Under the pieces are notes generated by a model. That model searched no databases, was not told the origin of the DNA, and saw only the letters and a program-made list of their open reading frames with translations. A stretch of 64,000 nt of DNA, taken from the NCBI RefSeq assembly GCF_013315695.1, contig NZ_CP054353.1. One strand, 5' to 3'. A program made the translations under genes and the position numbers. Within the stretch, counting starts at the first letter, position 1. The number at the start of each line of letters is the position of its first letter. Below are positions 37,498 to 52,715 of this stretch, piece after piece. The stretch comes from Escherichia coli. Lineage in GTDB: Bacteria; Pseudomonadota; Gammaproteobacteria; Enterobacterales; Enterobacteriaceae.

Positions 37498-39438
37498 TTA
37501 AACCGAGTATCTTTGTGAATATTTTTTCACGTTAGTATCAAGTGGCTGTGAGGACGCGAAAAAATCCCCTTGCCCACCTGTAACACCGCGCTGAATCAGG
37601 GTCTGCCACTCGCTTCGCGAACGCACGCCGGTGGCGTAAACCTGGGTGCTGGTCCCGGAGCAGGCTTCCACCAGGCTTTGAACCAGCAGCTGGTTCTCCG
37701 TTCGCTTCTCAATGTTTCTGACCAGCCCCGGATGGAGCTTGAGTAACTCAACATTAAGTTCTTTGATCCAACTGGTGCTTACCAGCGTCAAACCAGCCTG
37801 GTTGACGGCTACCCGTACCCCTAAAGCATTCACTAAACGAATAACAGGTTGTAAGCGACTGATATGTTGACCTACATCGGCCTCTGCAAGTTCAATAATT
37901 ATGCGTTTTCGTTGCGATCTTTCACATTGCATTAACGTATCGCGCAGCCAACGCTGAAAACGCGGGCGAATCAGCGACTCAACGGTAACCTGAATCGCCA
38001 GATTTTCCTCCGGCCAGTAACGCAATAGTGGAATCAGACGGCTGATTTGCAGGCGGTCATACTCTTCCGATAAGCCAAACTGCAAGACCATCGGCATATA
38101 CTCCGCCGAGCTAACCTCTTCATTACCATCGAAGATGCGGCACATGAGTTCGCGATGATGAACCTGACCTTCGCGAGTAACCGCCGGTTTTTGATAAAGG
38201 CGCGGGCCGCCGCGACTCAGCATTTGCTCGATAAGCGTACGCCAGCGAACATTACCGCGTCCTTTTTCAGGCAACGAGTCATCGTAAATAGCCCAGCTAT
38301 TGCCGCCCTGCAATCCCGCATTACGCGTGGCAGACTCTGCATGTTCCATTACCTGCTCGGTATCCTGACCACTACGCCAGGCACAGATACCAATGTGGAT
38401 CATATCGTCGCGATCGAGCATTTTATTGTTCGGCAAGGTATCGACGGCTTTGATTAACTGACTGGCGATGCTCTCTGCCTCTTTTAACGTCCGGTGCGGT
38501 AACAGCGCAGCAAAATCACTGCGGTGGTAACGCGCCAGCAGTGCGCCAGGGTAGCGCATCATAAATGTCGATAGCAGATTCGTCAGAGAGAAGAACTGTT
38601 CTTCAACCTGGCTGTGCCCCCAGGTATCACTCAACATATTGAAATCCGGCAGACGAATCATCATCACGATCCCGTGGGTACCTACTTTCTCCTGATCTTC
38701 CAGTAACGTTGCTAACTGATTATCGAAGAAGAGTCGGTTATTGAGGCCGGTTTTCATGTCCTGGGCGGCATAAGAGCGGATCAGCGTATCAAGACGGCTG
38801 TGTTGTTCGCGTGCGTTCTGAATTTCACAAAGCAGCGTATCCAGCGCACTGCTGGTTCTGGGCGGCCATTCATAGATGGTTCCCAACACATTAGAGCCAC
38901 GCTCACCGTTTAAGATACGAGTAGCCCGGGTTTCCAGCAATTCTTGCCCGGCAAGTTGCCGTTGTAACCAGCGTACCGCCAGGAAGAGCATAAGAATGAT
39001 AAAGCCAATCGCCCCCGTGAGCGGCGCGGTAGTCATTAAAGAATGGAAATAGTTGCCCATCGGATCCTGATAAACCAGACGCAGCGACATCCCCGGATGC
39101 TTTATCAACGGAACGCTCAGTTCGCGAAACAGATCGCTGGTGCCAACCGGACGATAACTACCATTTCTGGCCAGGGTATATACCTGTTTATCACTATGCA
39201 GCAGGTCTACACGAACGATATCTGCTGACATCATTAATTCGGTAATTTGTGGCCTTAATGCGCTGAAGTCATTCGACACAAGATGGGTATCAATCGCCGT
39301 CGCCACCGCCTGAACGCGATGACTAAACTTATACTGAATGGCGTTGTAGAAACTTAGCGAACAGCCCAGCAAAGTCACAAAAATTGTTAACCCGGTGAGC
39401 AGCGTAACAAAGGCCGAAAATTTCGTCGTTAATCTCAT
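37498..39438 (-). CDS. csrD: CsrB/CsrC sRNA decay factor CsrD (degenerate GGDEF-EAL)
   Basis: 646-aa ORF with two N-terminal TM helices followed by GGDEF-like and EAL-like domains. Confidence 0.93.
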   Translation of the reverse strand: MRLTTKFSAFVTLLTGLTIFVTLLGCSLSFYNAIQYKFSHRVQAVATAIDTHLVSNDFSALRPQITELMMSADIVRVDLLHSDKQVYTLARNGSYRPVGTSDLFRELSVPLIKHPGMSLRLVYQDPMGNYFHSLMTTAPLTGAIGFIILMLFLAVRWLQRQLAGQELLETRATRILNGERGSNVLGTIYEWPPRTSSALDTLLCEIQNAREQHSRLDTLIRSYAAQDMKTGLNNRLFFDNQLATLLEDQEKVGTHGIVMMIRLPDFNMLSDTWGHSQVEEQFFSLTNLLSTFMMRYPGALLARYHRSDFAALLPHRTLKEAESIASQLIKAVDTLPNNKMLDRDDMIHIGICAWRSGQDTEQVMEHAESATRNAGLQGGNSWAIYDDSLPEKGRGNVRWRTLIEQMLSRGGPRLYQKPAVTREGQVHHRELMCRIFDGNEEVSSAEYMPMVLQFGLSEEYDRLQISRLIPLLRYWPEENLAIQVTVESLIRPRFQRWLRDTLMQCERSQRKRIIIELAEADVGQHISRLQPVIRLVNALGVRVAVNQAGLTLVSTSWIKELNVELLKLHPGLVRNIEKRTENQLLVQSLVEACSGTSTQVYATGVRSRSEWQTLIQRGVTGGQGDFFASSQPLDTNVKKYSQRYSV

Positions 39439-39589
39439 CCTTGTGTTAACTCCGATAGTGAGGAAGCGGGCATACTAGCAAATCAGATTTATCTCGCAAT
39501 TTATTGCGCTTCATCGGCTTTGCTTTTCCATTAGCGAGTATAGTCTTCAGAAATTATTTTCCAATCCATCATGCACATGAGGACCACTT

Positions 39590-40564
39590 ATGCAGGCGTT
39601 ACTTTTAGAACAGCAGGACGGCAAAACTCTCGCATCAGTACAGACTCTGGACGAAAGTCGCCTGCCGGAAGGCGATGTCACGGTTGATGTTCACTGGTCG
39701 AGCCTGAACTACAAAGATGCGCTGGCAATTACCGGTAAGGGAAAAATCATCCGTAATTTTCCGATGATTCCTGGGATCGATTTTGCCGGAACTGTACGCA
39801 CCAGCGAAGATCCGCGTTTTCATGCCGGTCAGGAGGTGTTACTCACTGGCTGGGGCGTTGGTGAAAACCACTGGGGTGGGCTGGCGGAGCAGGCGCGAGT
39901 GAAAGGTGACTGGCTGGTTGCCATGCCGCAAGGGCTGGACGCGCGTAAAGCAATGATTATCGGTACTGCCGGTTTTACCGCCATGCTGTGTGTGATGGCG
40001 CTGGAAGATGCCGGTGTTCGCCCGCAGGACGGCGAGATTGTCGTAACGGGTGCCAGTGGTGGCGTCGGCAGTACCGCCGTGGCGCTGCTGCATAAGTTGG
40101 GTTATCAGGTCGTTGCCGTTTCCGGTCGCGAAAGTACCCATGAATATCTGAAAAGTTTAGGAGCCAGCCGTATTCTCCCTCGCGATGAGTTTGCCGAATC
40201 CCGTCCTCTGGAAAAACAAGTCTGGGCTGGGGCAATTGACACCGTTGGCGACAAAGTGCTGGCAAAAGTGCTGGCGCAAATGAATTACGGCGGCTGCGTG
40301 GCGGCCTGTGGTCTGGCGGGTGGTTTTACTCTGCCAACCACGGTCATGCCATTTATTCTGCGTAATGTCCGTTTGCAAGGGGTGGATTCAGTAATGACGC
40401 CACCAGCACGCCGCGCACAAGCCTGGCAGCGACTGGTCGCCGATTTACCGGAATCATTCTATACCCAGGCGGCAAAAGAGATATCTCTGGCAGATGCACC
40501 GAAGTTTGCCGAGGCCATCATTAATAACCAGATCCAGGGTCGCACGCTGGTGAAGGTTAACTAA
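39590..40564 (+). CDS. acuI: acrylyl-CoA reductase / zinc-type oxidoreductase AcuI (YhdH)
   Basis: 324-aa MDR-superfamily quinone oxidoreductase-like protein. Confidence 0.92.
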   Translation: MQALLLEQQDGKTLASVQTLDESRLPEGDVTVDVHWSSLNYKDALAITGKGKIIRNFPMIPGIDFAGTVRTSEDPRFHAGQEVLLTGWGVGENHWGGLAEQARVKGDWLVAMPQGLDARKAMIIGTAGFTAMLCVMALEDAGVRPQDGEIVVTGASGGVGSTAVALLHKLGYQVVAVSGRESTHEYLKSLGASRILPRDEFAESRPLEKQVWAGAIDTVGDKVLAKVLAQMNYGGCVAACGLAGGFTLPTTVMPFILRNVRLQGVDSVMTPPARRAQAWQRLVADLPESFYTQAAKEISLADAPKFAEAIINNQIQGRTLVKVN

Positions 40565-40600
40565 CCATTTAGCAAGGATTAATAAGAGAGGGAACTCATT

Positions 40601-41431
40601 TTGAAATCATTATTCAATCGGTTAACGGGAAAAGCGGTTAGCCGGACAGCTTTCGTCGAACATCTTGGTCATGAAGTTGTACAACATCATCCAAACTGGA
40701 AAGTCATGATTTCGACTGACCATAAATTGATGCGCATTGATACGGGTCACCAAACGGTGGAAATCACTCTTGATGATGCCTACAAACGTTATCAAGCCGC
40801 ACCAGACCCGCTGGAAGAAGTGGCTGCAGATATGCTGAAACAGCTTGCAGAAATGCTGCCGACCGGGCGCTGTATTGTTCCGGTGATTAAAGAAAAAGCC
40901 TGGCTGGATACCGTTCGCCAACAGCTTAGCCAGTATGAATCTGATCCAGAGATCCTCAACGCCTCGCTGGATTTTGCCTGGGAAGACTTTAACGATGAGT
41001 TAATTATCTTGTTTGCTGAAGATGGTAGCGAAACCATGCGCTATCTGATGCGCTACGAAGTGACCATTGACCGCGAACAAGCCATCAATAATTTGAAGCA
41101 AATATTGCCGGAAGTTTCGGCTGAAATCGTTGATACAGGCGCAAACGCTGGAAAAGTTGCCGTTATCTCCGCAGGGGGTACTTATGAGCCCAGTCTGATG
41201 CTCATTGACGATCTTTGGGTGCAATCACCCGATCCTGAATGCGGCGACCTGTTAGTGACTGTTCCCTCCAGAGGAAAACTGTTTTTCACCTACAATGATC
41301 AGCCAGCAAATCTCAGCGCATTACGACAGTTAACAGAACAATGCTTCCGTGAGGATGACCATCCTCTGACAACACAGATATTCATCCGCCGTAACGGTCA
41401 CTTTTATCCCTGGGTAGAAACCTTGCATTAA
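40601..41431 (+). CDS. hypothetical protein, 276 aa (TTG start)
   Basis: Uninterrupted ORF with a plausible Shine-Dalgarno (AGAGAGGGAA) about 10 bp upstream; protein-like composition; no confident family assignment. Confidence 0.55.
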   Translation: MKSLFNRLTGKAVSRTAFVEHLGHEVVQHHPNWKVMISTDHKLMRIDTGHQTVEITLDDAYKRYQAAPDPLEEVAADMLKQLAEMLPTGRCIVPVIKEKAWLDTVRQQLSQYESDPEILNASLDFAWEDFNDELIILFAEDGSETMRYLMRYEVTIDREQAINNLKQILPEVSAEIVDTGANAGKVAVISAGGTYEPSLMLIDDLWVQSPDPECGDLLVTVPSRGKLFFTYNDQPANLSALRQLTEQCFREDDHPLTTQIFIRRNGHFYPWVETLH

Positions 41432-42296
41432 CGCAACCTCCGTCATGCTTGAAAAAGCTTGTCGGAGTATGTGATGAATGCTGCAAACTCACCGAAGCCG
41501 ATTTTGCCACCAAATCGGCTTTTTTATTGTCACGCGGCAAATTCTGAATGCATCACATAGCCGCACTGCCGCCTGACAAAACAGTTTACCTTCTGCAAAA
41601 TGGGGGGAATAATCTGATTTTATTTGATTACAAATTAACCACTTAAACCTATTTAATGCTGAGCATTGTCAGTCGGTTGATTTTGCGTGCTTTAGCATTC
41701 ACATCTATCCAGACGATGCAGTGAAAATTGGGTAATCCCCAGCAACCGCTGCGTAATGTCGTCTATCTTGTCGCGATCCTGGCATCCCTACATTATTTGT
41801 GGTCTGTGAAGATTATCTCATTGCAGCCCCTCATCTTCGCAGGGCTGGCTTTACAGCTTTTCACCTTACGTTATAAGAAGTTCCGTCGATGATGGCGCTA
41901 ATTTCGTGAATTGTGCGGCTTGTTGCAAATTACACGGTGTTGAAGGTTATTTACATGTTAGCTGTTGATTATCTTCCCTGATAAGACCAGTATTTAGCTG
42001 CCAATTGCTACGAAATCGTTATAATGTGCGACCTCGTCCTCCCTGACGCAGTTTTTGCGCTGCGGAAAAGGTGACATTGGCGCAACGAAGGTATATTTTG
42101 TTTTTTGCCGGAGGATAGCAGCAGATCGCTGCACAATGTCCGTCAAGTCTAACATTGACACTCTGGGGCAAAATAGACCGGCGTCCCGGCCTGCTGGAAT
42201 TTATCGCTATGCATACAGCTGTCGGGGCATACGCTTTACAGACGGCGGTGAAACGCCTGTCACAATCACACTAAACAAAGAGTACGGAACCCACTC

Positions 42297-42767
42297 ATGG
42301 ATATTCGTAAGATTAAAAAACTGATCGAGCTGGTTGAAGAATCAGGCATCTCCGAACTGGAAATTTCTGAAGGCGAAGAGTCAGTACGCATTAGCCGTGC
42401 AGCTCCTGCCGCAAGTTTCCCTGTGATGCAACAAGCTTACGCTGCACCAATGATGCAGCAGCCAGCTCAATCTAACGCAGCCGCTCCGGCGACCGTTCCT
42501 TCCATGGAAGCGCCAGCAGCAGCGGAAATCAGTGGTCACATCGTACGTTCCCCGATGGTTGGTACTTTCTACCGCACCCCAAGCCCGGACGCAAAAGCGT
42601 TCATCGAAGTGGGTCAGAAAGTCAACGTGGGCGATACCCTGTGCATCGTTGAAGCCATGAAAATGATGAACCAGATCGAAGCGGACAAATCCGGTACCGT
42701 GAAAGCAATTCTGGTCGAAAGTGGACAACCGGTAGAATTTGACGAGCCGCTGGTCGTCATCGAGTAA
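42297..42767 (+). CDS. accB: biotin carboxyl carrier protein of acetyl-CoA carboxylase
   Basis: 156-aa ORF with Ala/Pro-rich linker and biotinylation motif EAMKMMN. Confidence 0.97.
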
Positions 42768-42777
42768 CGAGGCGAAC

Positions 42778-44127
42778 ATGCTGGATAAAATTGTTATTGC
42801 CAACCGCGGCGAGATTGCATTGCGTATTCTTCGTGCCTGTAAAGAACTGGGCATCAAGACTGTCGCTGTGCACTCCAGCGCGGATCGCGATCTAAAACAC
42901 GTATTACTGGCAGATGAAACGGTCTGTATCGGCCCTGCTCCGTCAGTAAAAAGTTATCTGAACATCCCGGCAATCATCAGCGCCGCTGAAATCACCGGCG
43001 CAGTAGCAATCCATCCGGGCTACGGCTTCCTCTCCGAGAACGCCAACTTTGCCGAGCAGGTTGAACGCTCCGGCTTTATCTTCATCGGCCCGAAAGCAGA
43101 AACCATTCGCCTGATGGGCGACAAAGTATCCGCAATCGCGGCGATGAAAAAAGCGGGCGTTCCTTGCGTACCGGGTTCTGACGGCCCGCTGGGCGACGAT
43201 ATGGATAAAAACCGCGCCATTGCTAAACGCATTGGTTATCCGGTAATTATCAAAGCCTCCGGCGGCGGCGGCGGTCGCGGTATGCGCGTAGTGCGCGGCG
43301 ACGCTGAACTGGCACAATCCATCTCCATGACCCGTGCGGAAGCGAAAGCTGCTTTCAGCAACGATATGGTTTACATGGAGAAATACCTGGAAAATCCTCG
43401 CCACGTCGAGATTCAGGTACTGGCTGACGGTCAGGGCAACGCTATCTATCTGGCGGAACGTGACTGCTCCATGCAGCGCCGCCACCAGAAAGTGGTCGAA
43501 GAAGCACCAGCACCGGGCATTACCCCGGAACTGCGTCGCTACATCGGCGAACGTTGCGCTAAAGCATGTGTTGATATCGGCTATCGCGGTGCAGGTACTT
43601 TCGAGTTCCTGTTCGAAAATGGCGAGTTCTATTTCATCGAAATGAACACCCGTATTCAGGTAGAACACCCGGTTACTGAAATGATCACCGGCGTTGACCT
43701 GATCAAAGAACAGCTGCGTATCGCTGCCGGTCAACCGCTGTCGATCAAGCAAGAAGAAGTTCACGTTCGCGGCCATGCGGTAGAGTGCCGTATCAACGCC
43801 GAAGATCCGAACACCTTCCTGCCAAGCCCGGGCAAAATCACCCGTTTCCATGCACCTGGCGGTTTTGGCGTGCGTTGGGAGTCTCATATCTACGCGGGCT
43901 ACACTGTGCCGCCGTACTATGACTCAATGATCGGCAAACTGATTTGCTACGGTGAAAACCGTGACGTGGCGATTGCCCGCATGAAGAATGCGCTGCAGGA
44001 GCTGATCATCGACGGTATCAAAACCAACGTTGATCTGCAGATCCGCATCATGAATGACGAGAACTTCCAGCATGGTGGCACTAACATCCACTATCTGGAG
44101 AAAAAACTCGGTCTTCAGGAAAAATAA
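42778..44127 (+). CDS. accC: biotin carboxylase
   Basis: 449-aa ATP-grasp enzyme starting [16 protein letters not shown]; the track ORF extension overlaps accB and was rejected. Confidence 0.97.
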
Positions 44128-44218: not shown

Positions 44219-45265
44219 CTAACGGTAGCTTGCAATTTCCGCTTTCAACGCGCTAATTTCAGCATCGCCATCAACAATTCCCAGCTCAAAGCAGTATGTC
44301 TTTGTTTCCCCTGGCTCTATAAAGGGCAGACGCCCCTGCGCTCGTTCTTTATCACGACCGTCAGGAAAACTATTGCTGACCTCCAGCCCCATAACATATT
44401 CACCCGCGCCTAAATTTTTCCAGTGGATAAAGTTGGGTAGCTGCATGGTGTCGAATTTCTCGTAAATTCCCCACCCCAGTTCGGCGTTCACCAGCGCAAC
44501 TTTACTCATCCCCTGACTGTCGCTATTCAACGTGAGATAGTAAACCTGCTCGTCAAAACCGGGCTGTGGGGTACAAATCTCCAGATGACTGGTTAACCCT
44601 TCCGCCGCATGCGGGGTTCGTGGCGTTACGCTTTTAGCCGACAGCAAGATTTCTGCCTGTGGCGATAATAAAGGCCAGCCGTAATTAAAGTGATAAAGAA
44701 TTTGCAGCGGCTGGCGGGTGAAACCATGATTAGTCACCTTGTCTTCAATGCGCAGCACATTTTCGCCATAACGGCAGCGAATGGTCCTTTCCAGCGTCAG
44801 ATTTTCACCGAACAATCGTGTTTCCCGTACTTTGCCATTGATGACAAATTCAATGCCGTCGTCGGTCCGTTCTGTGCGATACCCCACCTCTTCTGCTGGA
44901 GTCGCAGCCAAACGCCCGTGTAACCCCAGCGTTTCTCCGTTATCCTCACAGGGCGTGCCAATGTAGCTAAGTCCGCAGGTAGTCAGTAACCCCGCGTAGA
45001 AGCTACGTAAAAACCCGTTGCCCTGAGACTCAAAAAAAGCGGGGGCGACAATGCCGTTGGGGGTGATAAAAGAGAGCGCAGTATCCTTGTAGCTGGCCCA
45101 TGCAATATCCAGCGCGCGATCTTTTACCACCGTAAATGCCAGTCCCGCACCAGTACGGACATCAAACGCTTCTGTCCCCTTTGCTCTGCCACTACGTAAC
45201 TCATAGTGTTTAATTCCGGCAACCTGCGAGAGATCGCCAATCCACGACCAAATTTCGTTTTTCAT
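44219..45265 (-). CDS. mutarotase-like / DUF4432-like protein (islet)
   Basis: 348-aa ORF overlapping the upstream kinase stop by 4 bp; family assignment from memory only. Confidence 0.6.
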   Translation of the reverse strand: MKNEIWSWIGDLSQVAGIKHYELRSGRAKGTEAFDVRTGAGLAFTVVKDRALDIAWASYKDTALSFITPNGIVAPAFFESQGNGFLRSFYAGLLTTCGLSYIGTPCEDNGETLGLHGRLAATPAEEVGYRTERTDDGIEFVINGKVRETRLFGENLTLERTIRCRYGENVLRIEDKVTNHGFTRQPLQILYHFNYGWPLLSPQAEILLSAKSVTPRTPHAAEGLTSHLEICTPQPGFDEQVYYLTLNSDSQGMSKVALVNAELGWGIYEKFDTMQLPNFIHWKNLGAGEYVMGLEVSNSFPDGRDKERAQGRLPFIEPGETKTYCFELGIVDGDAEISALKAEIASYR

Positions 45266-46224
45266 TGTGCTGCTTCCCGAATGGACATGTCATGGCGCTG
45301 GATGAACGCTTCGATTTCCGCAAGGCGAGACGTTCCCTCCATTGGGCCACGTCGGGTTACCGCCAGTGCACCGCAGGCGTTGGCATATTGTAATGCCCGA
45401 TGGGCGTCAAACCCTAGCTGGCGGCAGGCAATCCACGCGCCACCAAAACAGTCTCCCGCACCGGTCGGGTCAACTTCTTCCACCGGATAGCTCTCAACAT
45501 GAAACTGCTCATTCGCGGAGTAGTAACTGGCACCTTGATTGCCGCGCTTCACAATCACCTCTTTAACACCTTCTTCAAGAAAACCAGCGATTGCACGCTC
45601 CGGTGTCGAGTGTGGCGACAAGAGCAACACTTCTCCCTCGCTGGGCATATAGATATCTGTTAACTCAAGAACAAAGTGGAGGGCGTCACGCATTTCTGGA
45701 ATATCGAGCATCTCTTTCCGAATATTAGGGTCAAAAGAAATAACGCCACCATTCTCTTTTACAATGGTTACCGCTTTCTTTACTGCGTCTACCATATGGA
45801 ATGAAAACAGGGATGAACCCATAATATGAAAATGGGTACAGTCCTTCAGAATATTTTCATCAACATGCTGCGCCGATAATTTACCGCAAGCGGCATTCTT
45901 GATATTAAAAATAAAATCGCGATCGCCAGAGTTATGATAAGTAACAAAGGCACTCCCGGTAGCTTCCAGAGGTAAGACTGAAATCCCCCTGATATCCACA
46001 CCGTCAGCAGCCAGACGATGTATATTAATATCACCAAAGCCATCATTCCCCACACAGCTAATGATGCCGCACGGAACGCCAAGACGTGTCACCTGGTCGA
46101 TAAAAATAGCGGGTGCGCCACTGGGATAAGGGCCGTTCCAGATACCTGGTTGATCAAATGGCTGGCCGATTTTACTCGCCATAATTTCAACCAGAATTTC
46201 TCCAATTGTGAAGACCTTACTCAT
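45262..46224 (-). CDS. PfkB-family sugar kinase (islet kinase 1)
   Basis: 320-aa ORF with ribokinase-superfamily motifs (GG..N.A, DPTGAGDCF anion-hole). Confidence 0.85.
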   Translation of the reverse strand: MSKVFTIGEILVEIMASKIGQPFDQPGIWNGPYPSGAPAIFIDQVTRLGVPCGIISCVGNDGFGDINIHRLAADGVDIRGISVLPLEATGSAFVTYHNSGDRDFIFNIKNAACGKLSAQHVDENILKDCTHFHIMGSSLFSFHMVDAVKKAVTIVKENGGVISFDPNIRKEMLDIPEMRDALHFVLELTDIYMPSEGEVLLLSPHSTPERAIAGFLEEGVKEVIVKRGNQGASYYSANEQFHVESYPVEEVDPTGAGDCFGGAWIACRQLGFDAHRALQYANACGALAVTRRGPMEGTSRLAEIEAFIQRHDMSIREAAQ

Positions 46225-46245
46225 ATGATTAATTCCTTGAAATGA

Positions 46246-47235
46246 TTAGCTGCGTTTTCTTTTATTTCTTACGTCAAAATAAACGGCTACAAGAATGACT
46301 AATCCTTTAACCACCATCTGATAGAAATAGGGAACGTTCATTAAGTTCATGCCATTATTAATAACGCCGATGGTTAATGCCCCGATTACCGTCCCCACCA
46401 CGGTTCCATAGCCGCCGTTCAGGCTGGTGCCTCCCAGTACAGCCGCAGCAATAGCATCCAGTTCGTAGCTCAACGCGGAATTCGGTTGCCCGGAATAGAG
46501 GCGTGAGGCGAGGATCATCCCGCTGATACCTGCCAGCACAGCTGTAATCATAAAGACTTTTATTTTCAAGCGGGTGACATTTATCCCTGAATAAACTGCC
46601 GCTTCTTTATTACCACCAGTGATATAAATCTTTCGTCCAAAGGTTGTTTTAGTAAGAATGAAATGGTTAATCAGCAATAAGATAATTAATATCCAGATTG
46701 GAATAGGTATATAGAGAAATTCTCCATTCCCCAGCGCCAGAAAGGCATCATCTTTAATCATGATGGGCATACCATCGGTCACTATATAAGCGATACCACG
46801 GAAGATCCCCATAGTAGCAACGGTGACAATAAACGACGGGATCCCCGCTATAGCCGTCAAGCCACCATTTATCATCCCCAGAGCCAGGGCTGCAATAATG
46901 GATAATGGGACCAATAAAATAAATGGAATTCCCCATGAAGCCCCAAGCGCAGCAAATGTGCCAATCAATGCAATGGTTGAACCAACCGATAAATCAATAT
47001 CGCCAAGCAAAAGTACGTAAGTCATTCCATAGGCGGTAATTGCAATTATCGAAACCTGAAGAATAATATTAGTAATGTTATTGGCGGTAAAAAAACTGTC
47101 ATTAATAAAACTGAACAGAATGATTAACACCACCATTCCACTGAGGATACCGCCATATTGCCTGAAGACTTTTTTAAAATTATTTGCAATGGGAATTTCC
47201 GAAGGTTTCGGACTGGCAAGAGTTTTCTCTGTCAT
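46246..47235 (-). CDS. sugar ABC transporter permease (RbsC/AraH-like)
   Basis: 329-aa polytopic membrane protein abutting the ATPase gene. Confidence 0.85.
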   Translation of the reverse strand: MTEKTLASPKPSEIPIANNFKKVFRQYGGILSGMVVLIILFSFINDSFFTANNITNIILQVSIIAITAYGMTYVLLLGDIDLSVGSTIALIGTFAALGASWGIPFILLVPLSIIAALALGMINGGLTAIAGIPSFIVTVATMGIFRGIAYIVTDGMPIMIKDDAFLALGNGEFLYIPIPIWILIILLLINHFILTKTTFGRKIYITGGNKEAAVYSGINVTRLKIKVFMITAVLAGISGMILASRLYSGQPNSALSYELDAIAAAVLGGTSLNGGYGTVVGTVIGALTIGVINNGMNLMNVPYFYQMVVKGLVILVAVYFDVRNKRKRS

Positions 47236-48735
47236 TTAACGTACTCCTGTTGCAGCGGTCATTACCTGTGTCTGCGTTAAATTTTCACATGAATAAATAT
47301 CGGCAATCGTTTTATTACGCATTACCACCAGACGATCGCTAAGTGCCATGACTTCTGGCAGTTCAGAGGACACCAGAATAATTGCTGTCCCTGCCGCAGC
47401 CAGTTGACGTATCACGTTATAGATTTCAAATTTTGCGCCGACATCCACTCCGCGCGTTGGCTCATCGAGCAATAAAATACGCGGAGTTTTCTCCAGCCAC
47501 TTCGATAACACGATTTTCTGTTGATTACCGCCGCTCAGTGCTCCCACTGCCTGATGTACAGAACTCACTTTAGTGTTCATTCTGGCAATTGATTGCAGCG
47601 TCTTCGCCTCTTCTTGTCGGTGATTGATAAGTCCTATCCGCGAAGCGTTATATTGAAACGCCACATGGTGCGTGTTCATATTGACGTCGTGCATCAGCAC
47701 TAACCCTTCTTCCTTGCGGTTTTCGGTCACAAAAGCAATGCCATGATCAATAGCCTGTTTGGGATTAGCGATCCTGACTTCCTTACCATCAATCAACACA
47801 GTCCCGTGATACGAAACGAGGCCAAATAGCGCCTTCATCACATCGGAACGCCCGGCCCCCACCAGGCCAAAAAATCCGAGGACTTCCCCCGGACGCACAG
47901 CGAAACTGACCTCTTTAAAAAGCGAAGGATGGGAAAGGTTTTTTACTTCCAGTTTTGCAGGAACATTTTCATCCGGCTTTTCCCCAAGACGTGCTGGCCA
48001 AATATTTTTCATTTCCCGACCAACCATTTGGGCAATCAAATGCTGGATATCACTGTTTTTCTTTTCATGCGTAGCGATATACTCACCGTCGCGGATCACC
48101 GAAATATCATCTGAAATCCGCATAATTTCATCCATGCGATGAGAGATATAAATAACCGCACAACCTCGCTGCTTTAATTTCTCAATAATGTTAAACAGAA
48201 TCTCTGCTTCATTATCACTTAGCGAAGATGTCGGTTCATCCATAATCACGACATCTGCTGCATAGCTTAAGGCTTTGGCAATTTCTACCAGTTGCCTATG
48301 TGCCATCGACATATTGCCGACCATTTCCAGCGGATCCAGTGGGATGCCCAGTTCCGCGAGGAGATTCTGGCAATCTGCGAGCATTTTTTTATCGTTAATA
48401 ATGCCAAAACGTCGCGGTTCATTATTGGCATAAATATTTTCCGCCACGGTCATATTATTACTCAGGCTCAGTTCCTGAAAAATAATCGCAATCCCTAACT
48501 GGCGAGAATGCTGCGGATTATTAATGGTGATGGTTTCACCACGTAGTGTTATCGTTCCCTGGGTTGGCGGATAAACACCGGCGAGTATTTTCATTAATGT
48601 CGATTTACCGGCACCATTCTCGCCTAATAAAGTATGCACCCGCCCTTTACGTAAAGAGAGGGTAATATCTTTTAATGCCTGAACATGACCAAATGTCTTC
48701 GCAATATGCGAAACATCAAGAATAACATCCGTCAT
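47236..48735 (-). CDS. sugar ABC transporter ATP-binding protein, duplicated-domain type (RbsA-like)
   Basis: 499-aa ORF with two ABC cassettes (Walker A GENGAGKST, signature LSGGNQQK). Confidence 0.88.
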   Translation of the reverse strand: MTDVILDVSHIAKTFGHVQALKDITLSLRKGRVHTLLGENGAGKSTLMKILAGVYPPTQGTITLRGETITINNPQHSRQLGIAIIFQELSLSNNMTVAENIYANNEPRRFGIINDKKMLADCQNLLAELGIPLDPLEMVGNMSMAHRQLVEIAKALSYAADVVIMDEPTSSLSDNEAEILFNIIEKLKQRGCAVIYISHRMDEIMRISDDISVIRDGEYIATHEKKNSDIQHLIAQMVGREMKNIWPARLGEKPDENVPAKLEVKNLSHPSLFKEVSFAVRPGEVLGFFGLVGAGRSDVMKALFGLVSYHGTVLIDGKEVRIANPKQAIDHGIAFVTENRKEEGLVLMHDVNMNTHHVAFQYNASRIGLINHRQEEAKTLQSIARMNTKVSSVHQAVGALSGGNQQKIVLSKWLEKTPRILLLDEPTRGVDVGAKFEIYNVIRQLAAAGTAIILVSSELPEVMALSDRLVVMRNKTIADIYSCENLTQTQVMTAATGVR

Positions 48736-48795
48736 AATGACCTCGGTGTCACAACAAAACGTCGATAACGTTTTGTTGTGAAATGAAGATGTTTA

Positions 48796-49686
48796 TCATT
48801 TACCTGTATAAACGCCGGGTTGTACCGGGATCATTTTTTCTACCGGTTTACCATTGAGGTGATCAACAGCGGCATCAATGGCTTTAGCACCCATTTGATC
48901 GGGATATTGCCGAATCACGGCCGCAAACGTTTTTTCACTGTCAACGGCATCACGCGCTTCTTTCATGCCGTCAAAACCAATGATTTTGATGTTGTCGTTA
49001 TGCGCAGATTTCGCTGCGATAACCGCTGCCAGCGCCGCATCATCACCAAAGCCAAACAGACCATTCAGGTTGGCATTTGCCTGCATAATGTTTTGCGCAG
49101 TCGTTAACGCTTCAGCCCGCGTAATACCAGGCTGTTCAGCAACAATTTTAATATCCGGTGTATCGCTTAACCCTTTCTTAAAACCATCAACGCGCGCAAC
49201 CACCGATTGTAATGCCGGATAAGAAATAATGGCTACAGTACCTTTACCATTCAAAAGTTTGCCCATTAACTTGCCTGCTTCAACGCCTCCCGCGTAGTTA
49301 TCGGTCGCAACATGCGATACGACCGGAACGCCTTCCGCAGCGACGTCGACGGTGATAACGGGAATACCGGCCTTATCGGCTTTAATTATCGCCGCCTGGA
49401 CGCCTTTCGAATCGACCGGAGAGATAATAATGGCATCCACTTTTTTAGTAATAAAATCCTCAACATCAGAAAGTTGTTTGTTTAAATCCTGATTGGCAAT
49501 AGAGACACTTAAATTGACATTGTCTTTTTTTGCCTCTTCTTTCATGGCATTCGCAAGATCAATATAGAAAGGATGTTGCTGTGTTAATAATGACGCACCA
49601 ATTTTATACTCTTTTGCCAACGAGCTTTGCGAGAACAATGCCAGGCTCACCAACATAGCTGAACCAAGTAATTTAATATTTTTCAT
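48796..49686 (-). CDS. periplasmic sugar-binding protein (RbsB-like)
   Basis: 296-aa ORF with signal peptide MKNIKLLGSAMLVSLALFSQSSLA. Confidence 0.85.
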   Translation of the reverse strand: MKNIKLLGSAMLVSLALFSQSSLAKEYKIGASLLTQQHPFYIDLANAMKEEAKKDNVNLSVSIANQDLNKQLSDVEDFITKKVDAIIISPVDSKGVQAAIIKADKAGIPVITVDVAAEGVPVVSHVATDNYAGGVEAGKLMGKLLNGKGTVAIISYPALQSVVARVDGFKKGLSDTPDIKIVAEQPGITRAEALTTAQNIMQANANLNGLFGFGDDAALAAVIAAKSAHNDNIKIIGFDGMKEARDAVDSEKTFAAVIRQYPDQMGAKAIDAAVDHLNGKPVEKMIPVQPGVYTGK

Positions 49687-49721
49687 AAATAATCCTCATT
49701 GTTTTTGTAGGGTACAACATC

Positions 49722-50603
<882 letters not shown>

Positions 50604-50917
50604 TTACAAAATGAAGAAAGAGAATCTTCACTTTCATTTTGAAAGCAAACTAGCACAGCAAAAGCGGCAAAAAGCGTGATGCATGTCGAATATCATCAAA
50701 ATAACTTACAAAAAATAACTTAATTTGTTTTTTACTTTGTAAGTGAAACCAATGACACCTCTGCATAAATATGAATATATTCATTTATTTTTCAATGTAT
50801 TAAGCTATTTTCGTTGCGATTTTTGACCCATGATTTTCTTTTCGAATTGTCGATATTATTGAAGGGTAACTTTCAAAGAAAAATACAAGGGGCTATAGTG
50901 TTACGCATTAAAGGCCA

Positions 50918-51748
50918 ATGAAGAGTGTTAACGTGCCGAGAAAATCGTCTAACCTACTGAAACGCAGATTAAAAATTGCAGAAATTGTTGCCGCCCAGGG
51001 TGAAATCAAAGTTGATGACTTATCTGCGCAACTTGGTGTCTCTAGCGTGACGATCCGCGGCGATCTCAGTTATCTGGAGCAACAGGGATATTTAAAGCGA
51101 TCATTTGGCGGTGCTATTGCGACACCACTCTCCTCTGAACCAGAAGCGATACAACCGATCGCGCCGTTGTCTCTGGCACAACAAATGGAAATAGCACGAC
51201 ATTGCGCACGGTTAATTCGGGATCGTGACACGCTATTTCTTGGACATGGGACAATCTGCCGTAAGATCATTCCCTTGCTCAGCGAAGTGAAAAAACTGCG
51301 TCTGATCACCAACGATCCCGAACATGCGCTGCTGGCAAATCAGTTTATTGATGGCGAAATAATACTGGCTGGCAGTGAAATGCTGCGCCCCGATACCGCA
51401 CTGGCCGGAAAACCTCTCGAACAGGCACTTCAGCATTTCACCATTACACATAGCATTCTGGAAATCAGCCATCTGGATGCTGATGGTACTTTAAATATCA
51501 ACGTTCCCAGACTTGCCGCTGCCTGGCAGCTCTGTTTCGATAATGCCCAGAATAAGACGGTTATCGTTGCCGCCGATCCTGCGCCATCAACGGCTGCTAT
51601 CGGGCATTTGCATCAAGCAGAAAATGTGATCGTCAGCCGCAGCATTAACGAACAATATCAGCAACAATTGCAGTCGGCTGATTTCGTTATCCTTTATACC
51701 AGTAATGAGTGCTTTACCTGGTCCAATCGCGAAAGGCTTCAGGAATGA
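50918..51748 (+). CDS. DeoR-family transcriptional regulator
   Basis: 276-aa ORF with N-terminal DeoR HTH (LSAQLGVSSVTIRGDL) and sugar-phosphate-binding C-domain; divergent from the aldolase-ABC operon. Confidence 0.8.
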   Translation: MKSVNVPRKSSNLLKRRLKIAEIVAAQGEIKVDDLSAQLGVSSVTIRGDLSYLEQQGYLKRSFGGAIATPLSSEPEAIQPIAPLSLAQQMEIARHCARLIRDRDTLFLGHGTICRKIIPLLSEVKKLRLITNDPEHALLANQFIDGEIILAGSEMLRPDTALAGKPLEQALQHFTITHSILEISHLDADGTLNINVPRLAAAWQLCFDNAQNKTVIVAADPAPSTAAIGHLHQAENVIVSRSINEQYQQQLQSADFVILYTSNECFTWSNRERLQE

Positions 51749-51758
51749 GAGGGGTTTT

Positions 51759-52715
51759 GTGACAATAACTATCTGCGCTATGGGCGAATTGCTGGCCGAG
51801 TTTTTGTCCCGCAACCCACATCAAAAATTCACTCAGCCTGGGGAGTTTATCGGGCCATTTCCCAGCGGTGCACCAGCAATTTTTGCTGCTCAGGTGGCAA
51901 AACTGTCCCATCGGGCCATCTTCTTCGGATGTGTTGGTAATGATGATTTTGGCCGACTCATTATAGAGCGTCTCCGTCATGAAGGTGTCATTACCGATGG
52001 GATTCACGTTATGAACAATGCCGTCACAGGTACGGCGTTCGTGAGTTATCAAAATCCCCAGCAGCGGGATTTCGTCTTTAATATCCCTAACAGCGCCTGC
52101 GGTTTGTTTACTGCCGAGCACATTGATAAGGATCTGCTTAAACAGTGTAACCATCTGCATATTGTGGGCTCATCGTTGTTCTCATTTCGCATGATCGATG
52201 TCATGCGTAAAGCAATAACGACGATCAAATCGGCTGGCGGAACCGTTTCTTTCGATCCCAATATTCGCAAAGAGATGCTGAGCATTCCTGAAATGGCGCA
52301 GGCCCTCGATTATTTGATTGAATATACGGATATTTTTATCCCCAGCGAAAGCGAACTCCCTTTCTTCGCGCGTCACAAAAATCTGTCAGAAGAACAGATT
52401 GTTAGCGATCTTCTCCACGGCGGCGTAAAACATGTGGCGATAAAACGCGCCCAGCGTGGGGCCAGCTATTACAAGCTTAAAAACGGTACATTACACGCCC
52501 AGCATGTTACAGGCCACGATATCGAAATTATCGATCCAACGGGTGCAGGCGACTGCTTTGGCGCAACGTTTATCACTCTTTTCTTATCCGGTTTCCCGGC
52601 ACACAAGGCGCTGCAATATGCAAATGCCAGCGGCGCGCTCGCCGTAATGCAGCAAGGTCCGATGGAAGGGATATCCTCACTGACTGACATTGAAGACTTT
52701 TTGCAGCAGCACTGA
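51759..52715 (+). CDS. PfkB-family sugar kinase (islet kinase 2, paralog of kinase 1)
   Basis: About 50% identical to kinase 1 over its full length; GTG start chosen after RBS GAGAGGGG and by alignment with the kinase 1 N-terminus. Confidence 0.8.
   Translation: MTITICAMGELLAEFLSRNPHQKFTQPGEFIGPFPSGAPAIFAAQVAKLSHRAIFFGCVGNDDFGRLIIERLRHEGVITDGIHVMNNAVTGTAFVSYQNPQQRDFVFNIPNSACGLFTAEHIDKDLLKQCNHLHIVGSSLFSFRMIDVMRKAITTIKSAGGTVSFDPNIRKEMLSIPEMAQALDYLIEYTDIFIPSESELPFFARHKNLSEEQIVSDLLHGGVKHVAIKRAQRGASYYKLKNGTLHAQHVTGHDIEIIDPTGAGDCFGATFITLFLSGFPAHKALQYANASGALAVMQQGPMEGISSLTDIEDFLQQH

What the first reader, a model, noticed from the sequence alone, without database searches (positions are those of the whole stretch)
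40601..41431. Uncharacterised 276-aa ORF between acuI and accB
The ORF is well formed, with a TTG start preceded by a good Shine-Dalgarno. It is acidic and non-membrane, with no motif I can assign. It is followed by about 860 bp of non-coding sequence before accB. I cannot place it confidently in the K-12 backbone from memory, so it may be strain-variable.
Basis: inference. Interest (0 to 1): 0.35.

Follow-up and report, generated by a model that had tools for sequence, protein, structure and literature searches.

The report
Strain-variable DUF1444 gene beside acuI
The ORF is a real gene under purifying selection for a divergent, cytoplasmic member of the poorly understood DUF1444 (YtpQ/CgoN) family; about 12% of E. 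coli strains keep it, K-12 and most others have deleted all but its first 48 codons, and its biochemical function is still unknown.

Summary
A 276-codon ORF lies at 40601-41431 (+). It has a TTG start, a GAGAGGG Shine-Dalgarno and an intrinsic terminator, and the product is acidic (pI 4.8) and soluble.

The "strain-variable" guess is right. The ORF-specific DNA occurs in 669 of 5,426 complete E. coli genomes. K-12 and 536 keep only the SD, the TTG and 48 codons.

The gene is real: dN/dS is 0.13-0.14 against E. albertii and a 78%-identical ortholog, and 0.08-0.36 among E. coli alleles.

RefSeq already names it "DUF1444 domain-containing protein". Its own Pfam score is below threshold, but profile searches place it in DUF1444 (65 of 70 relatives hit; hhalign to YtpQ 98.4%). 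It is not an ortholog of the one characterised member, CgoN: 20.7 bits against a 221-bit cut-off, and no N-terminal domain match.

The ~865 bp before accB is not empty. It holds the terminator, decayed msrP and msrQ paralog remnants, and the accB promoter region. A related contig still reads acuI-ORF-msrP. The window-type and K-12-type alleles are independent deletions of that ancestral cluster, and E. albertii shares the window-type junction.

Function is unresolved. My best guess is a cofactor-binding redox or stress accessory protein co-transcribed with acuI. This is an ordinary finding of modest interest.

The parts
39590..40564 (+). acuI (acrylyl-CoA reductase), the upstream gene and probable operon partner. 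Its stop codon is 36 nt before the ORF start.
   Evidence: No terminator-like or promoter-like site lies between acuI and the ORF.
40587..40596 (+). Shine-Dalgarno region (AGAGAGGGAA). The GGG ends 7 nt before the TTG.
   Evidence: Read directly from the sequence. It is also kept in K-12 and 536.
40601..41431 (+). 276-aa ORF encoding a divergent, leaderless DUF1444-family protein (RefSeq WP_000838294.1).
40601..40743 (+). The first 143 nt (48 codons) of the ORF, the only part kept in K-12-type genomes. There it reads on into a 54-codon remnant ORF.
40744..41599 (+). Allele-specific segment of 856 bp, absent from K-12 and 536. Found in 669 of 5,426 E. coli genomes and in E. albertii.
41437..41468 (+). 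Hairpin just after the stop codon (CCTCCG...CGGAG). One stem pair shows a compensatory change in L004.
   Evidence: Read from the alignment. Not tested further.
41494..41530 (+). Intrinsic terminator: 11-bp stem, 7-nt loop, then a T-run.
   Evidence: predicted fold energy -12.9 kcal/mol; conserved in the O26 and D7 alleles.
41527..41599 (+). Decayed 5' end of an msrP paralog. The start codon is lost and there are indels.
   Evidence: This stretch aligns to the L004 ORF-msrP spacer and the first ~70 nt of the L004 gene. That L004 fragment matches annotated E. coli msrP at about 80% identity.
41600..41892 (+). Decayed 3' part of an msrQ paralog, with internal stops.
   Evidence: RefSeq annotates a pseudogene at 41590-41892. 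The translation has two internal stops. Window 41728-41889 matches NCBIfam MsrQ positions 142-193 of 212, E=2e-10.
41998..42025 (+). Best sigma-70-like site in the spacer (10 of 12 matches). It is a candidate accBC promoter and is not part of the ORF.
   Evidence: a consensus match only.

Best explanation
Shown: the ORF is a genuine protein-coding gene for a soluble, cytoplasmic, about 31-kDa protein with three predicted alpha/beta domains. It is a divergent, leaderless branch of the DUF1444 (YtpQ/CgoN, UPF0354) family. It is an old Escherichia gene, not a recent insertion. In a related enterobacterial contig the order is acuI, ORF, msrP. In the window strain and in E. albertii, one deletion fused msrP' to msrQ' but left the ORF intact. 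In K-12-type E. coli (about 88% of genomes), a different deletion runs from ORF codon 48 into msrQ' and destroys the gene. Inferred from sequence signals: the ORF is transcribed with acuI, because the gap is 36 nt with no promoter-like or terminator-like site, and it ends at its own intrinsic terminator, so it is separate from the former msrPQ unit. Inferred function (about 0.3 probability): like its distant relative CgoN, it binds a cofactor or ligand (flavin or tetrapyrrole-like) in the cleft between the N-terminal domain and the rest of the protein. It would then act as a dispensable redox or electrophile-stress accessory protein. It is not a coproporphyrinogen oxidase ortholog.
For: Coding and under selection: dN/dS is 0.144 against E. 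albertii and 0.127 against L004, and 0.08-0.36 among four intact E. coli alleles. Family: 4 of 5 clade members hit Pfam DUF1444 over the full length, best E=5.5e-5. The exhaustive profile search found 1,536 representatives. 65 of 70 aligned relatives hit PF07285, best 5.8e-20. hhalign of the family profile against a validated YtpQ gives 98.4% probability, E=4.4e-15. The window protein keeps every invariant and nearly invariant family residue. The AF2 model has pLDDT 90, and its secondary-structure elements group into three blocks close to the three domains described for CgoN (my grouping; PMC10965808). Ancestry and deletions: breakpoints are at 40743/40744 and 41599/41600. The L004 layout is acuI-ORF-msrP. 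The msrQ remnants are confirmed, and the K-12-only piece matches MsrQ positions 73-98, which the window allele lacks. E. albertii has an identical junction, with normal between-species divergence across the locus. Distribution: 669 of 5,426 genomes, single chromosomal copy. Cytoplasmic: no hydrophobic N-terminus, whereas 52 of 70 relatives have one. Transcription signals. The functional theme rests on literature: CgoN uses FAD (PMC10965808), and the B. subtilis ytpQ mutant is methylglyoxal-sensitive with oxidative protein damage and derepressed Fur and PerR regulons (PMC3176815).
Against: The window protein's own Pfam score is below the gathering threshold (16 against 23.8 bits). The N-terminal domain, which the CgoN paper proposes helps form the ligand site, does not align to YtpQ. 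Most close relatives look exported or lipoprotein-like, which fits poorly with a family-wide cytoplasmic flavoenzyme role. The S. aureus DUF1444 protein contributed at most minimally to haem synthesis and its function was left unknown (PMC6620371). No gene neighbour is conserved across nine sampled homolog neighbourhoods (L005, L007, L010 and six more). Loss of the gene in about 88% of E. coli shows it is dispensable. There are no expression data, and co-transcription with acuI rests only on consensus scans.
Confidence: 0.8

Rival explanations
1. It is a true CgoN-type enzyme: an FAD-dependent, oxygen-independent coproporphyrinogen III oxidase that passes electrons to quinones.
For: It is homologous to YtpQ/CgoN at profile level. 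CgoN activity has been shown in vitro for the P. megaterium protein (PMC10965808).
Against: It scores 20.7 bits on the NCBIfam YtpQ equivalog model, whose cut-off is 221, while a genuine YtpQ scores 431.9. Identity is only 21% over 170 columns and the N-terminal domain is not aligned. E. coli makes haem by the protoporphyrin-dependent route, so coproporphyrin III would be a dead end (established knowledge; the paper places the coproporphyrin pathway mainly in Bacillaceae). The nearest relatives are mostly exported PVC-group proteins. The S. aureus homolog contributed at most minimally to haem synthesis (PMC6620371).
Confidence: 0.05
2. It is a decaying relic with no current function, still intact only because too little time has passed, like the msrP' and msrQ' remnants next to it.
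For: It sits in a gene graveyard. About 88% of E. coli genomes have lost it. Some truncated protein clusters exist (181 aa, 38 members; 156 aa, 41 members). In E. albertii the last residues change and the ORF is 5 codons shorter.
Against: dN/dS is well below 1 both between and within species. The adjacent dead remnants are at 84-86% identity to E. albertii, against 91% for the ORF. The ORF has stayed open in lineages as diverged as E. albertii and L004.
Confidence: 0.1
3. It is a cytoplasmic accessory of the MsrPQ methionine-sulfoxide repair system, for example donating electrons to MsrQ or handling its haem or flavin. It would be inherited from the ancestral ORF-msrP-msrQ cluster and would now serve the msrPQ copy elsewhere in the genome.
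For: It is immediately upstream of msrP in L004 and, ancestrally, in Escherichia. The family has links to flavin, tetrapyrroles and oxidative damage (PMC10965808, PMC3176815).
Against: An intrinsic terminator separates the ORF from the msrP remnant. None of the nine sampled homolog neighbourhoods outside the acuI locus contains msrPQ. Most E. coli strains keep msrPQ but lack this gene.
Confidence: 0.07
4. It is cargo of a mobile element or part of a defence or anti-defence system.
For: The 61-63% homologs lie in a plasmid-like context with KfrA_N and Aca2 genes. The Haloferula homolog sits next to a TIR-domain protein. The gene's presence varies between strains.
Against: There are no PADLOC or PHROGs hits. 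There are no phage hits, and the only 'plasmid' hits are chromosome-sized records (4.8-4.9 Mb) or one 354-kb record matching only the 48-codon remnant. In E. coli it is always a single chromosomal copy at one syntenic site. The variation is explained by deletion of an ancestral gene, not by insertion. No repeats or integrase genes flank it.
Confidence: 0.03

Closest known systems
YtpQ / CgoN (UPF0354, Pfam PF07285 DUF1444; NCBIfam NF010189) of Bacillaceae
   Same: Same superfamily by profile-profile comparison (98.4% probability). Similar length of about 270 aa. Both lack a signal peptide. The model's secondary-structure elements group into three blocks close to the three-domain layout described for CgoN (PMC10965808). 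Shared motifs in the central and C-terminal domains include R-I-x-P-V-I-[KR], Y-[ED]-A-S and [IV]-P-x-x-[DG]-x-L.
   Different: Only about 21% identity. The N-terminal domain is not detectably conserved. It is far below the equivalog cut-off (20.7 against 221 bits). The host has no coproporphyrin-dependent haem pathway. It lies beside acuI and msrPQ remnants, not in a ytpPQR-type operon or near haem genes.
'DUF1444 family protein' of Verrucomicrobiota, Planctomycetota, Lentisphaeria and Acidobacteriota (uncharacterised)
   Same: These are the closest relatives outside Escherichia: about 30% identity over more than 90% of the length, all carrying PF07285. All invariant and nearly invariant residues are shared.
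   Different: Most of them have a signal-peptide or lipoprotein-like N-terminus (52 of 70; 17 with a lipobox), while the Escherichia clade has a short polar N-terminus instead. Their gene neighbourhoods are unrelated.
MsrP/MsrQ (YedY/YedZ), which explains the downstream spacer but not the ORF
   Same: The spacer fragments match the MsrQ model, and the K-12-only piece matches the true msrQ gene at about 80% nucleotide identity. The relative's downstream gene matches msrP at about 80%.
   Different: In the window these are non-functional fragments with internal stops, no start codon, and the middle deleted. The working msrPQ copy lies elsewhere in E. coli genomes.

Membership tests
Pfam PF07285 DUF1444 (UPF0354) | The protein's own score against the family HMM reaches the gathering threshold (23.8 bits). 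| tested here: not met
   16.0 bits, E=0.009, although the match spans residues 29-270 against profile positions 15-254 of 264. The best clade member reaches E=5.5e-5.
Pfam PF07285 DUF1444 (UPF0354) | Homology to bona fide members when profiles are used (transitive or profile-profile). | tested here: met
   A profile of the clade finds 1,536 representatives, 691 of them at E<=1e-10. 65 of 70 of these hit PF07285, best 5.8e-20. hhalign against a validated YtpQ gives 98.4% probability, E=4.4e-15. RefSeq names the protein 'DUF1444 domain-containing protein'.
Pfam PF07285 DUF1444 (UPF0354) | A three-domain fold of about 270 aa with no solved structural counterpart. | tested here: inconclusive
CgoN / YtpQ equivalog (NCBIfam NF010189) | Score at or above the curated equivalog cut-off (221 bits). 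| tested here: not met
   20.7 bits, while B. subtilis-type YtpQ scores 431.9 bits.
CgoN / YtpQ equivalog (NCBIfam NF010189) | Conserved N-terminal domain, proposed to close over the FAD and substrate site. | tested here: not met
   hhalign aligns only YtpQ residues 87-258, the central and C-terminal domains.
CgoN / YtpQ equivalog (NCBIfam NF010189) | FAD cofactor and coproporphyrinogen III oxidase activity. | not testable with these tools
   This needs purified protein. No FAD-binding residues are defined in the paper (PMC10965808, section 19).
CgoN / YtpQ equivalog (NCBIfam NF010189) | The host uses the coproporphyrin-dependent haem pathway, or the gene lies near cgoX, cpfC or chdC. | not tested
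   The local neighbours are csrD, acuI, msrP' and msrQ' remnants, and accBC, with no haem genes. That E. coli uses the protoporphyrin-dependent pathway is established knowledge and was not tested here.
MsrPQ-system accessory (hypothetical) | Conserved co-occurrence or co-transcription with msrPQ. | tested here: not met
   Adjacency is seen only in L004 and ancestrally in Escherichia. A terminator lies between the ORF and msrP'. msrPQ is absent from the nine other sampled homolog neighbourhoods.
Known anti-phage defence or phage protein families | A match to PADLOC or PHROGs models. | tested here: not met
   No hits at E<=0.01, and no tblastn hit in 50,697 phage records.

The most novel reading that the evidence does not exclude
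The leaderless Escherichia DUF1444 protein could be a functional cytoplasmic partner of the MsrPQ and AcuI stress-repair machinery, for example a flavin or haem-handling protein or an electron donor for the haem-b protein MsrQ. On this reading the two ancient deletion alleles, one shared with E. albertii, have been kept as a long-lived polymorphism because the gene helps only in some niches. That would give the first physiological role for the large non-Bacillus branch of DUF1444.
Probability: 0.06. Interest if true: 0.5.

Novelty: new member of a known kind. Interest (0 to 1): 0.25.

Why it matters
The practical importance is modest. The work explains a presence/absence polymorphism in the E. 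coli core-genome interval acuI-accB as two independent deletions of an ancestral cluster (DUF1444 gene, msrP, msrQ), not as an insertion. It also shows that K-12's long, 'empty' acuI-accB spacer is a gene graveyard that still carries a ribosome-binding site and 48 codons of this gene. DUF1444 turns out to be far broader than the 'almost exclusively Bacillaceae' range described for CgoN. It includes a large branch in PVC-group bacteria whose members mostly look exported, plus a leaderless enterobacterial offshoot. For that reason CgoN chemistry should not be transferred automatically to proteins annotated as DUF1444. Because E. coli carrier strains are easy to manipulate genetically, this gene offers a convenient way to test what non-Bacillus DUF1444 proteins do.

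Tried and rejected
1. A direct Pfam or NCBIfam assignment of the window protein alone gave only sub-threshold hits. The weak DUF1269 and CUE hits were dismissed as noise.

3. The afdb50 fold library was unavailable, so no superposition on CgoN AlphaFold models was possible.

4. The mobile-element and defence ideas were rejected. There were no phage hits. The 'plasmid' hits were chromosome-sized records or, in one 354-kb record, only the 48-codon remnant. PADLOC and PHROGs gave no hits.

5. Nine homolog neighbourhoods outside the acuI locus were sampled for a conserved neighbour and none recurs. The acyl-CoA genes beside P0025 and the TIR gene beside the Haloferula homolog are single cases.

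6. An Rfam scan of 39300-42400 found nothing near gathering scores.

7. The ORF's highly conserved first 143 nt (98.6% identical to E. albertii) do not hide an RNA-level element. Against L004 that block has as many synonymous changes (14) as other blocks, so an old recombination mosaic is the more likely cause.

8. A literature search for the locus (yhdH + accB + yedZ) returned no papers.

Full report
**1. Observation**

The window has a 276-codon ORF at 40601..41431 on the + strand, starting with TTG. An in-frame TAA lies five codons upstream. The next ATG is codon 36, so only the TTG start includes the first 35 residues. Those residues are conserved in all orthologs: L8, G10, K11, A12 and F18 are invariant. 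GAGAGGG ends 7 nt before the TTG.

The product is 31.5 kDa with pI 4.82 and no hydrophobic segment. The neighbours are csrD (-), acuI (+, ending 36 nt upstream) and accB/accC (+, starting 865 bp downstream).

**2. Is it a gene?**

Yes.

- Against the E. albertii ortholog (92% aa identity), dN/dS is 0.144.
- Against a 78%-identical ortholog on a Logan contig (L004), dN/dS is 0.127.
- The control gene acuI gives 0.03-0.07.
- Four E. coli alleles that differ by 2-3.6% in nucleotide sequence are all intact at 831 bp, with pairwise dN/dS of 0.08-0.36.
- The neighbouring pseudogene fragments are only 84-86% identical to E. albertii, against 91% for the ORF.

A good intrinsic terminator follows the ORF at 41494-41522 plus a T-run. 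No promoter-like or terminator-like site separates it from acuI. Co-transcription with acuI is therefore the simplest reading, but it is an inference and has not been shown.

**3. Strain variability**

A megablast of 39400-42900 finds the locus in 5,425 of 5,426 complete E. coli genomes, but only 668 cover it fully. The allele-specific segment 40744-41599 is present in 669 genomes (12%), always as a single chromosomal copy. It falls into two main classes:

- a class at >=99% identity (115 genomes, including SMS-3-5)
- a class at about 98% identity (553 genomes, including O26:H11 11368 and O111 strains)

K-12-type and 536-type genomes match the window up to 40743 and again from 41600, with 101 bp of different sequence in between. 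They keep the SD, the TTG and 48 codons, which read on into a 54-codon remnant.

**4. What the 'non-coding' 865 bp is**

- RefSeq annotates a 'cytochrome b family' / MsrQ / YedZ pseudogene here.
- Window 41728-41889 matches NCBIfam MsrQ positions 142-193 of 212 (E=2e-10).
- The K-12-only 101 bp matches MsrQ positions 73-98 (E=1e-4). It also hits the true msrQ gene elsewhere in each genome at about 80% identity.
- On contig L004, the gene after the ORF starts MQRRQILKALGISAAALSLP.... Its DNA matches annotated E. coli msrP at about 80%.
- Window 41432-41599 aligns to L004's ORF-msrP spacer plus the first ~70 nt of msrP, with the ATG lost.

The ancestral order was therefore acuI, ORF, msrP, msrQ, accB. 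The window allele lost the stretch from msrP codon ~25 to msrQ codon ~98. The K-12 allele lost the stretch from ORF codon 48 to msrQ codon ~66-70. Each allele keeps sequence that the other lacks, so the two deletions are independent.

E. albertii NBRC 107761 is collinear with the window across 6.7 kb at 91.5% identity and has the identical msrP'::msrQ' junction. Divergence is at ordinary between-species levels, so the window-type allele is old.

**5. Family**

Alone, the protein scores below threshold on Pfam DUF1444 (16 against 23.8 bits, though over the full length) and on the NCBIfam YtpQ equivalog (20.7 against 221 bits).

Close homologs are very few: 12 clusters among 5.8 billion proteins, essentially all Escherichia, plus 61-63% homologs in a plasmid-like context and one 38% homolog. 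Among 100,044 species-representative genomes, only E. albertii and a Haloferula species were found, and that pattern-based scan is tuned to the narrow clade.

A profile of the clade, searched exhaustively, finds 1,536 representatives, most about 280 aa and matching over the full length.

- 65 of 70 of them hit PF07285, best 5.8e-20.
- Source names are 'DUF1444 family protein' or 'YtpQ (UPF0354 family)', from Verrucomicrobiota, Lentisphaeria, Pirellulales and Thermoanaerobaculia.
- The window protein keeps all invariant and nearly invariant residues.

I recalled a B. subtilis YtpQ sequence from memory and validated it at 431.9 bits on the equivalog model. The family profile aligns to it with 98.4% probability, at 21% identity, and only over the central and C-terminal domains.

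The AF2 model is confident (pLDDT 90, pTM 0.77). Its secondary-structure elements group into three blocks (my grouping). It has no solved structural counterpart, as was also reported for CgoN (PMC10965808).

Verdict: this is a divergent DUF1444 member and not a CgoN ortholog.

**6. Function**

The only biochemistry for the family comes from P. megaterium YtpQ/CgoN. It is an FAD-containing, oxygen-independent coproporphyrinogen III oxidase with a low turnover of 0.63 per min (PMC10965808). The S. aureus homolog contributed at most minimally to haem synthesis, and its function was left unknown (PMC6620371). The B. subtilis ytpQ mutant shows methylglyoxal hypersensitivity, oxidative protein damage and derepressed Fur and PerR regulons (PMC3176815).

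E. coli uses the protoporphyrin-dependent haem pathway (established knowledge), so CgoN chemistry would have no use there.

About three quarters of the nearest relatives (52 of 70) have signal-like or lipoprotein-like N-termini, and the Escherichia clade does not. A uniform cytoplasmic flavoenzyme role for the whole family is therefore unlikely.

Nine sampled homolog neighbourhoods outside the acuI locus share no neighbour. Defence, phage and plasmid explanations were tested and rejected.

My best guess, at about 0.3 probability, is a dispensable cytoplasmic protein that binds a cofactor or ligand and acts in redox or electrophile stress, expressed together with acuI. The msrPQ-accessory idea is weakened by the intervening terminator and by the lack of conserved linkage.

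**7. Verdict**

The gene is already catalogued in RefSeq as WP_000838294.1, 'DUF1444 domain-containing protein'. It is a new, divergent member of a known family whose function is poorly understood. The locus history, two independent deletions of an ancestral DUF1444-msrP-msrQ cluster, is tidy but ordinary genome decay. Interest is modest at 0.25.

Noticed in passing
window 44219-52715: An 8.5-kb sugar-utilisation island lies between accC and yhdT. It encodes an aldose 1-epimerase-family protein, two sugar kinases, a three-component ABC sugar transporter, a tagatose-bisphosphate-family class II aldolase and a DeoR regulator. K-12 lacks it. Strain 536 has at least its first gene.
   Followed up: partly
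K-12-type genomes, locus L002 2702-2866 (corresponds to window 40601-40743 plus the junction): K-12 keeps the Shine-Dalgarno, the TTG and 48 codons of the deleted gene. These read into 6 new codons, giving a 54-codon remnant ORF (LKSLFNRLTGKAV...RIDTPLNSYY*) directly after acuI. Whether it is translated is unknown.
   Followed up: partly
window 40601-40743 compared with 40744-41431, against L009 (E. albertii): Divergence is mosaic. The first 143 nt of the ORF are 98.6% identical to E. albertii, against 91.4% for the rest of the ORF and 89.7% for acuI. The more distant L004 shows no matching drop in synonymous changes, so an old recombination tract is more likely than a hidden RNA element.
   Followed up: yes
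L002 2845-2945 (the K-12-only msrQ' fragment): This 101-bp pseudogene piece is unusually polymorphic within E. coli. 1,856 genome records are >=99% identical to K-12, but 2,514 are only 90-95% identical. K-12 and 536 differ at about 9 of 101 positions by my count from the printed sequences.
   Followed up: no
window 41437-41468: A second hairpin lies just after the ORF stop (CCTCCG...CGGAG around an AAGCTT palindrome). In L004 one stem pair shows a compensatory change (CCTCCA...TGGAGG), which hints that the hairpin is conserved.
   Followed up: no
L005 3898-4731 (Logan ERR11172932 contig): A 63%-identical homolog of the ORF sits in a plasmid-like region next to KfrA_N, Aca2/YdiL, DUF7352 and ResIII-fragment genes. 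This copy is therefore outside the acuI-accB chromosomal context. It has no counterpart in the PLSDB or phage collections.
   Followed up: partly
E. coli genomes generally (msrPQ at its usual locus compared with the acuI-accB remnants): E. coli has working msrPQ at another locus, while the acuI-accB interval holds a decayed paralogous pair that is about 80% identical to it. In the related L004 organism, msrP lies at the acuI locus. This suggests the msrPQ pair was relocated or replaced in the Escherichia lineage.
   Followed up: partly
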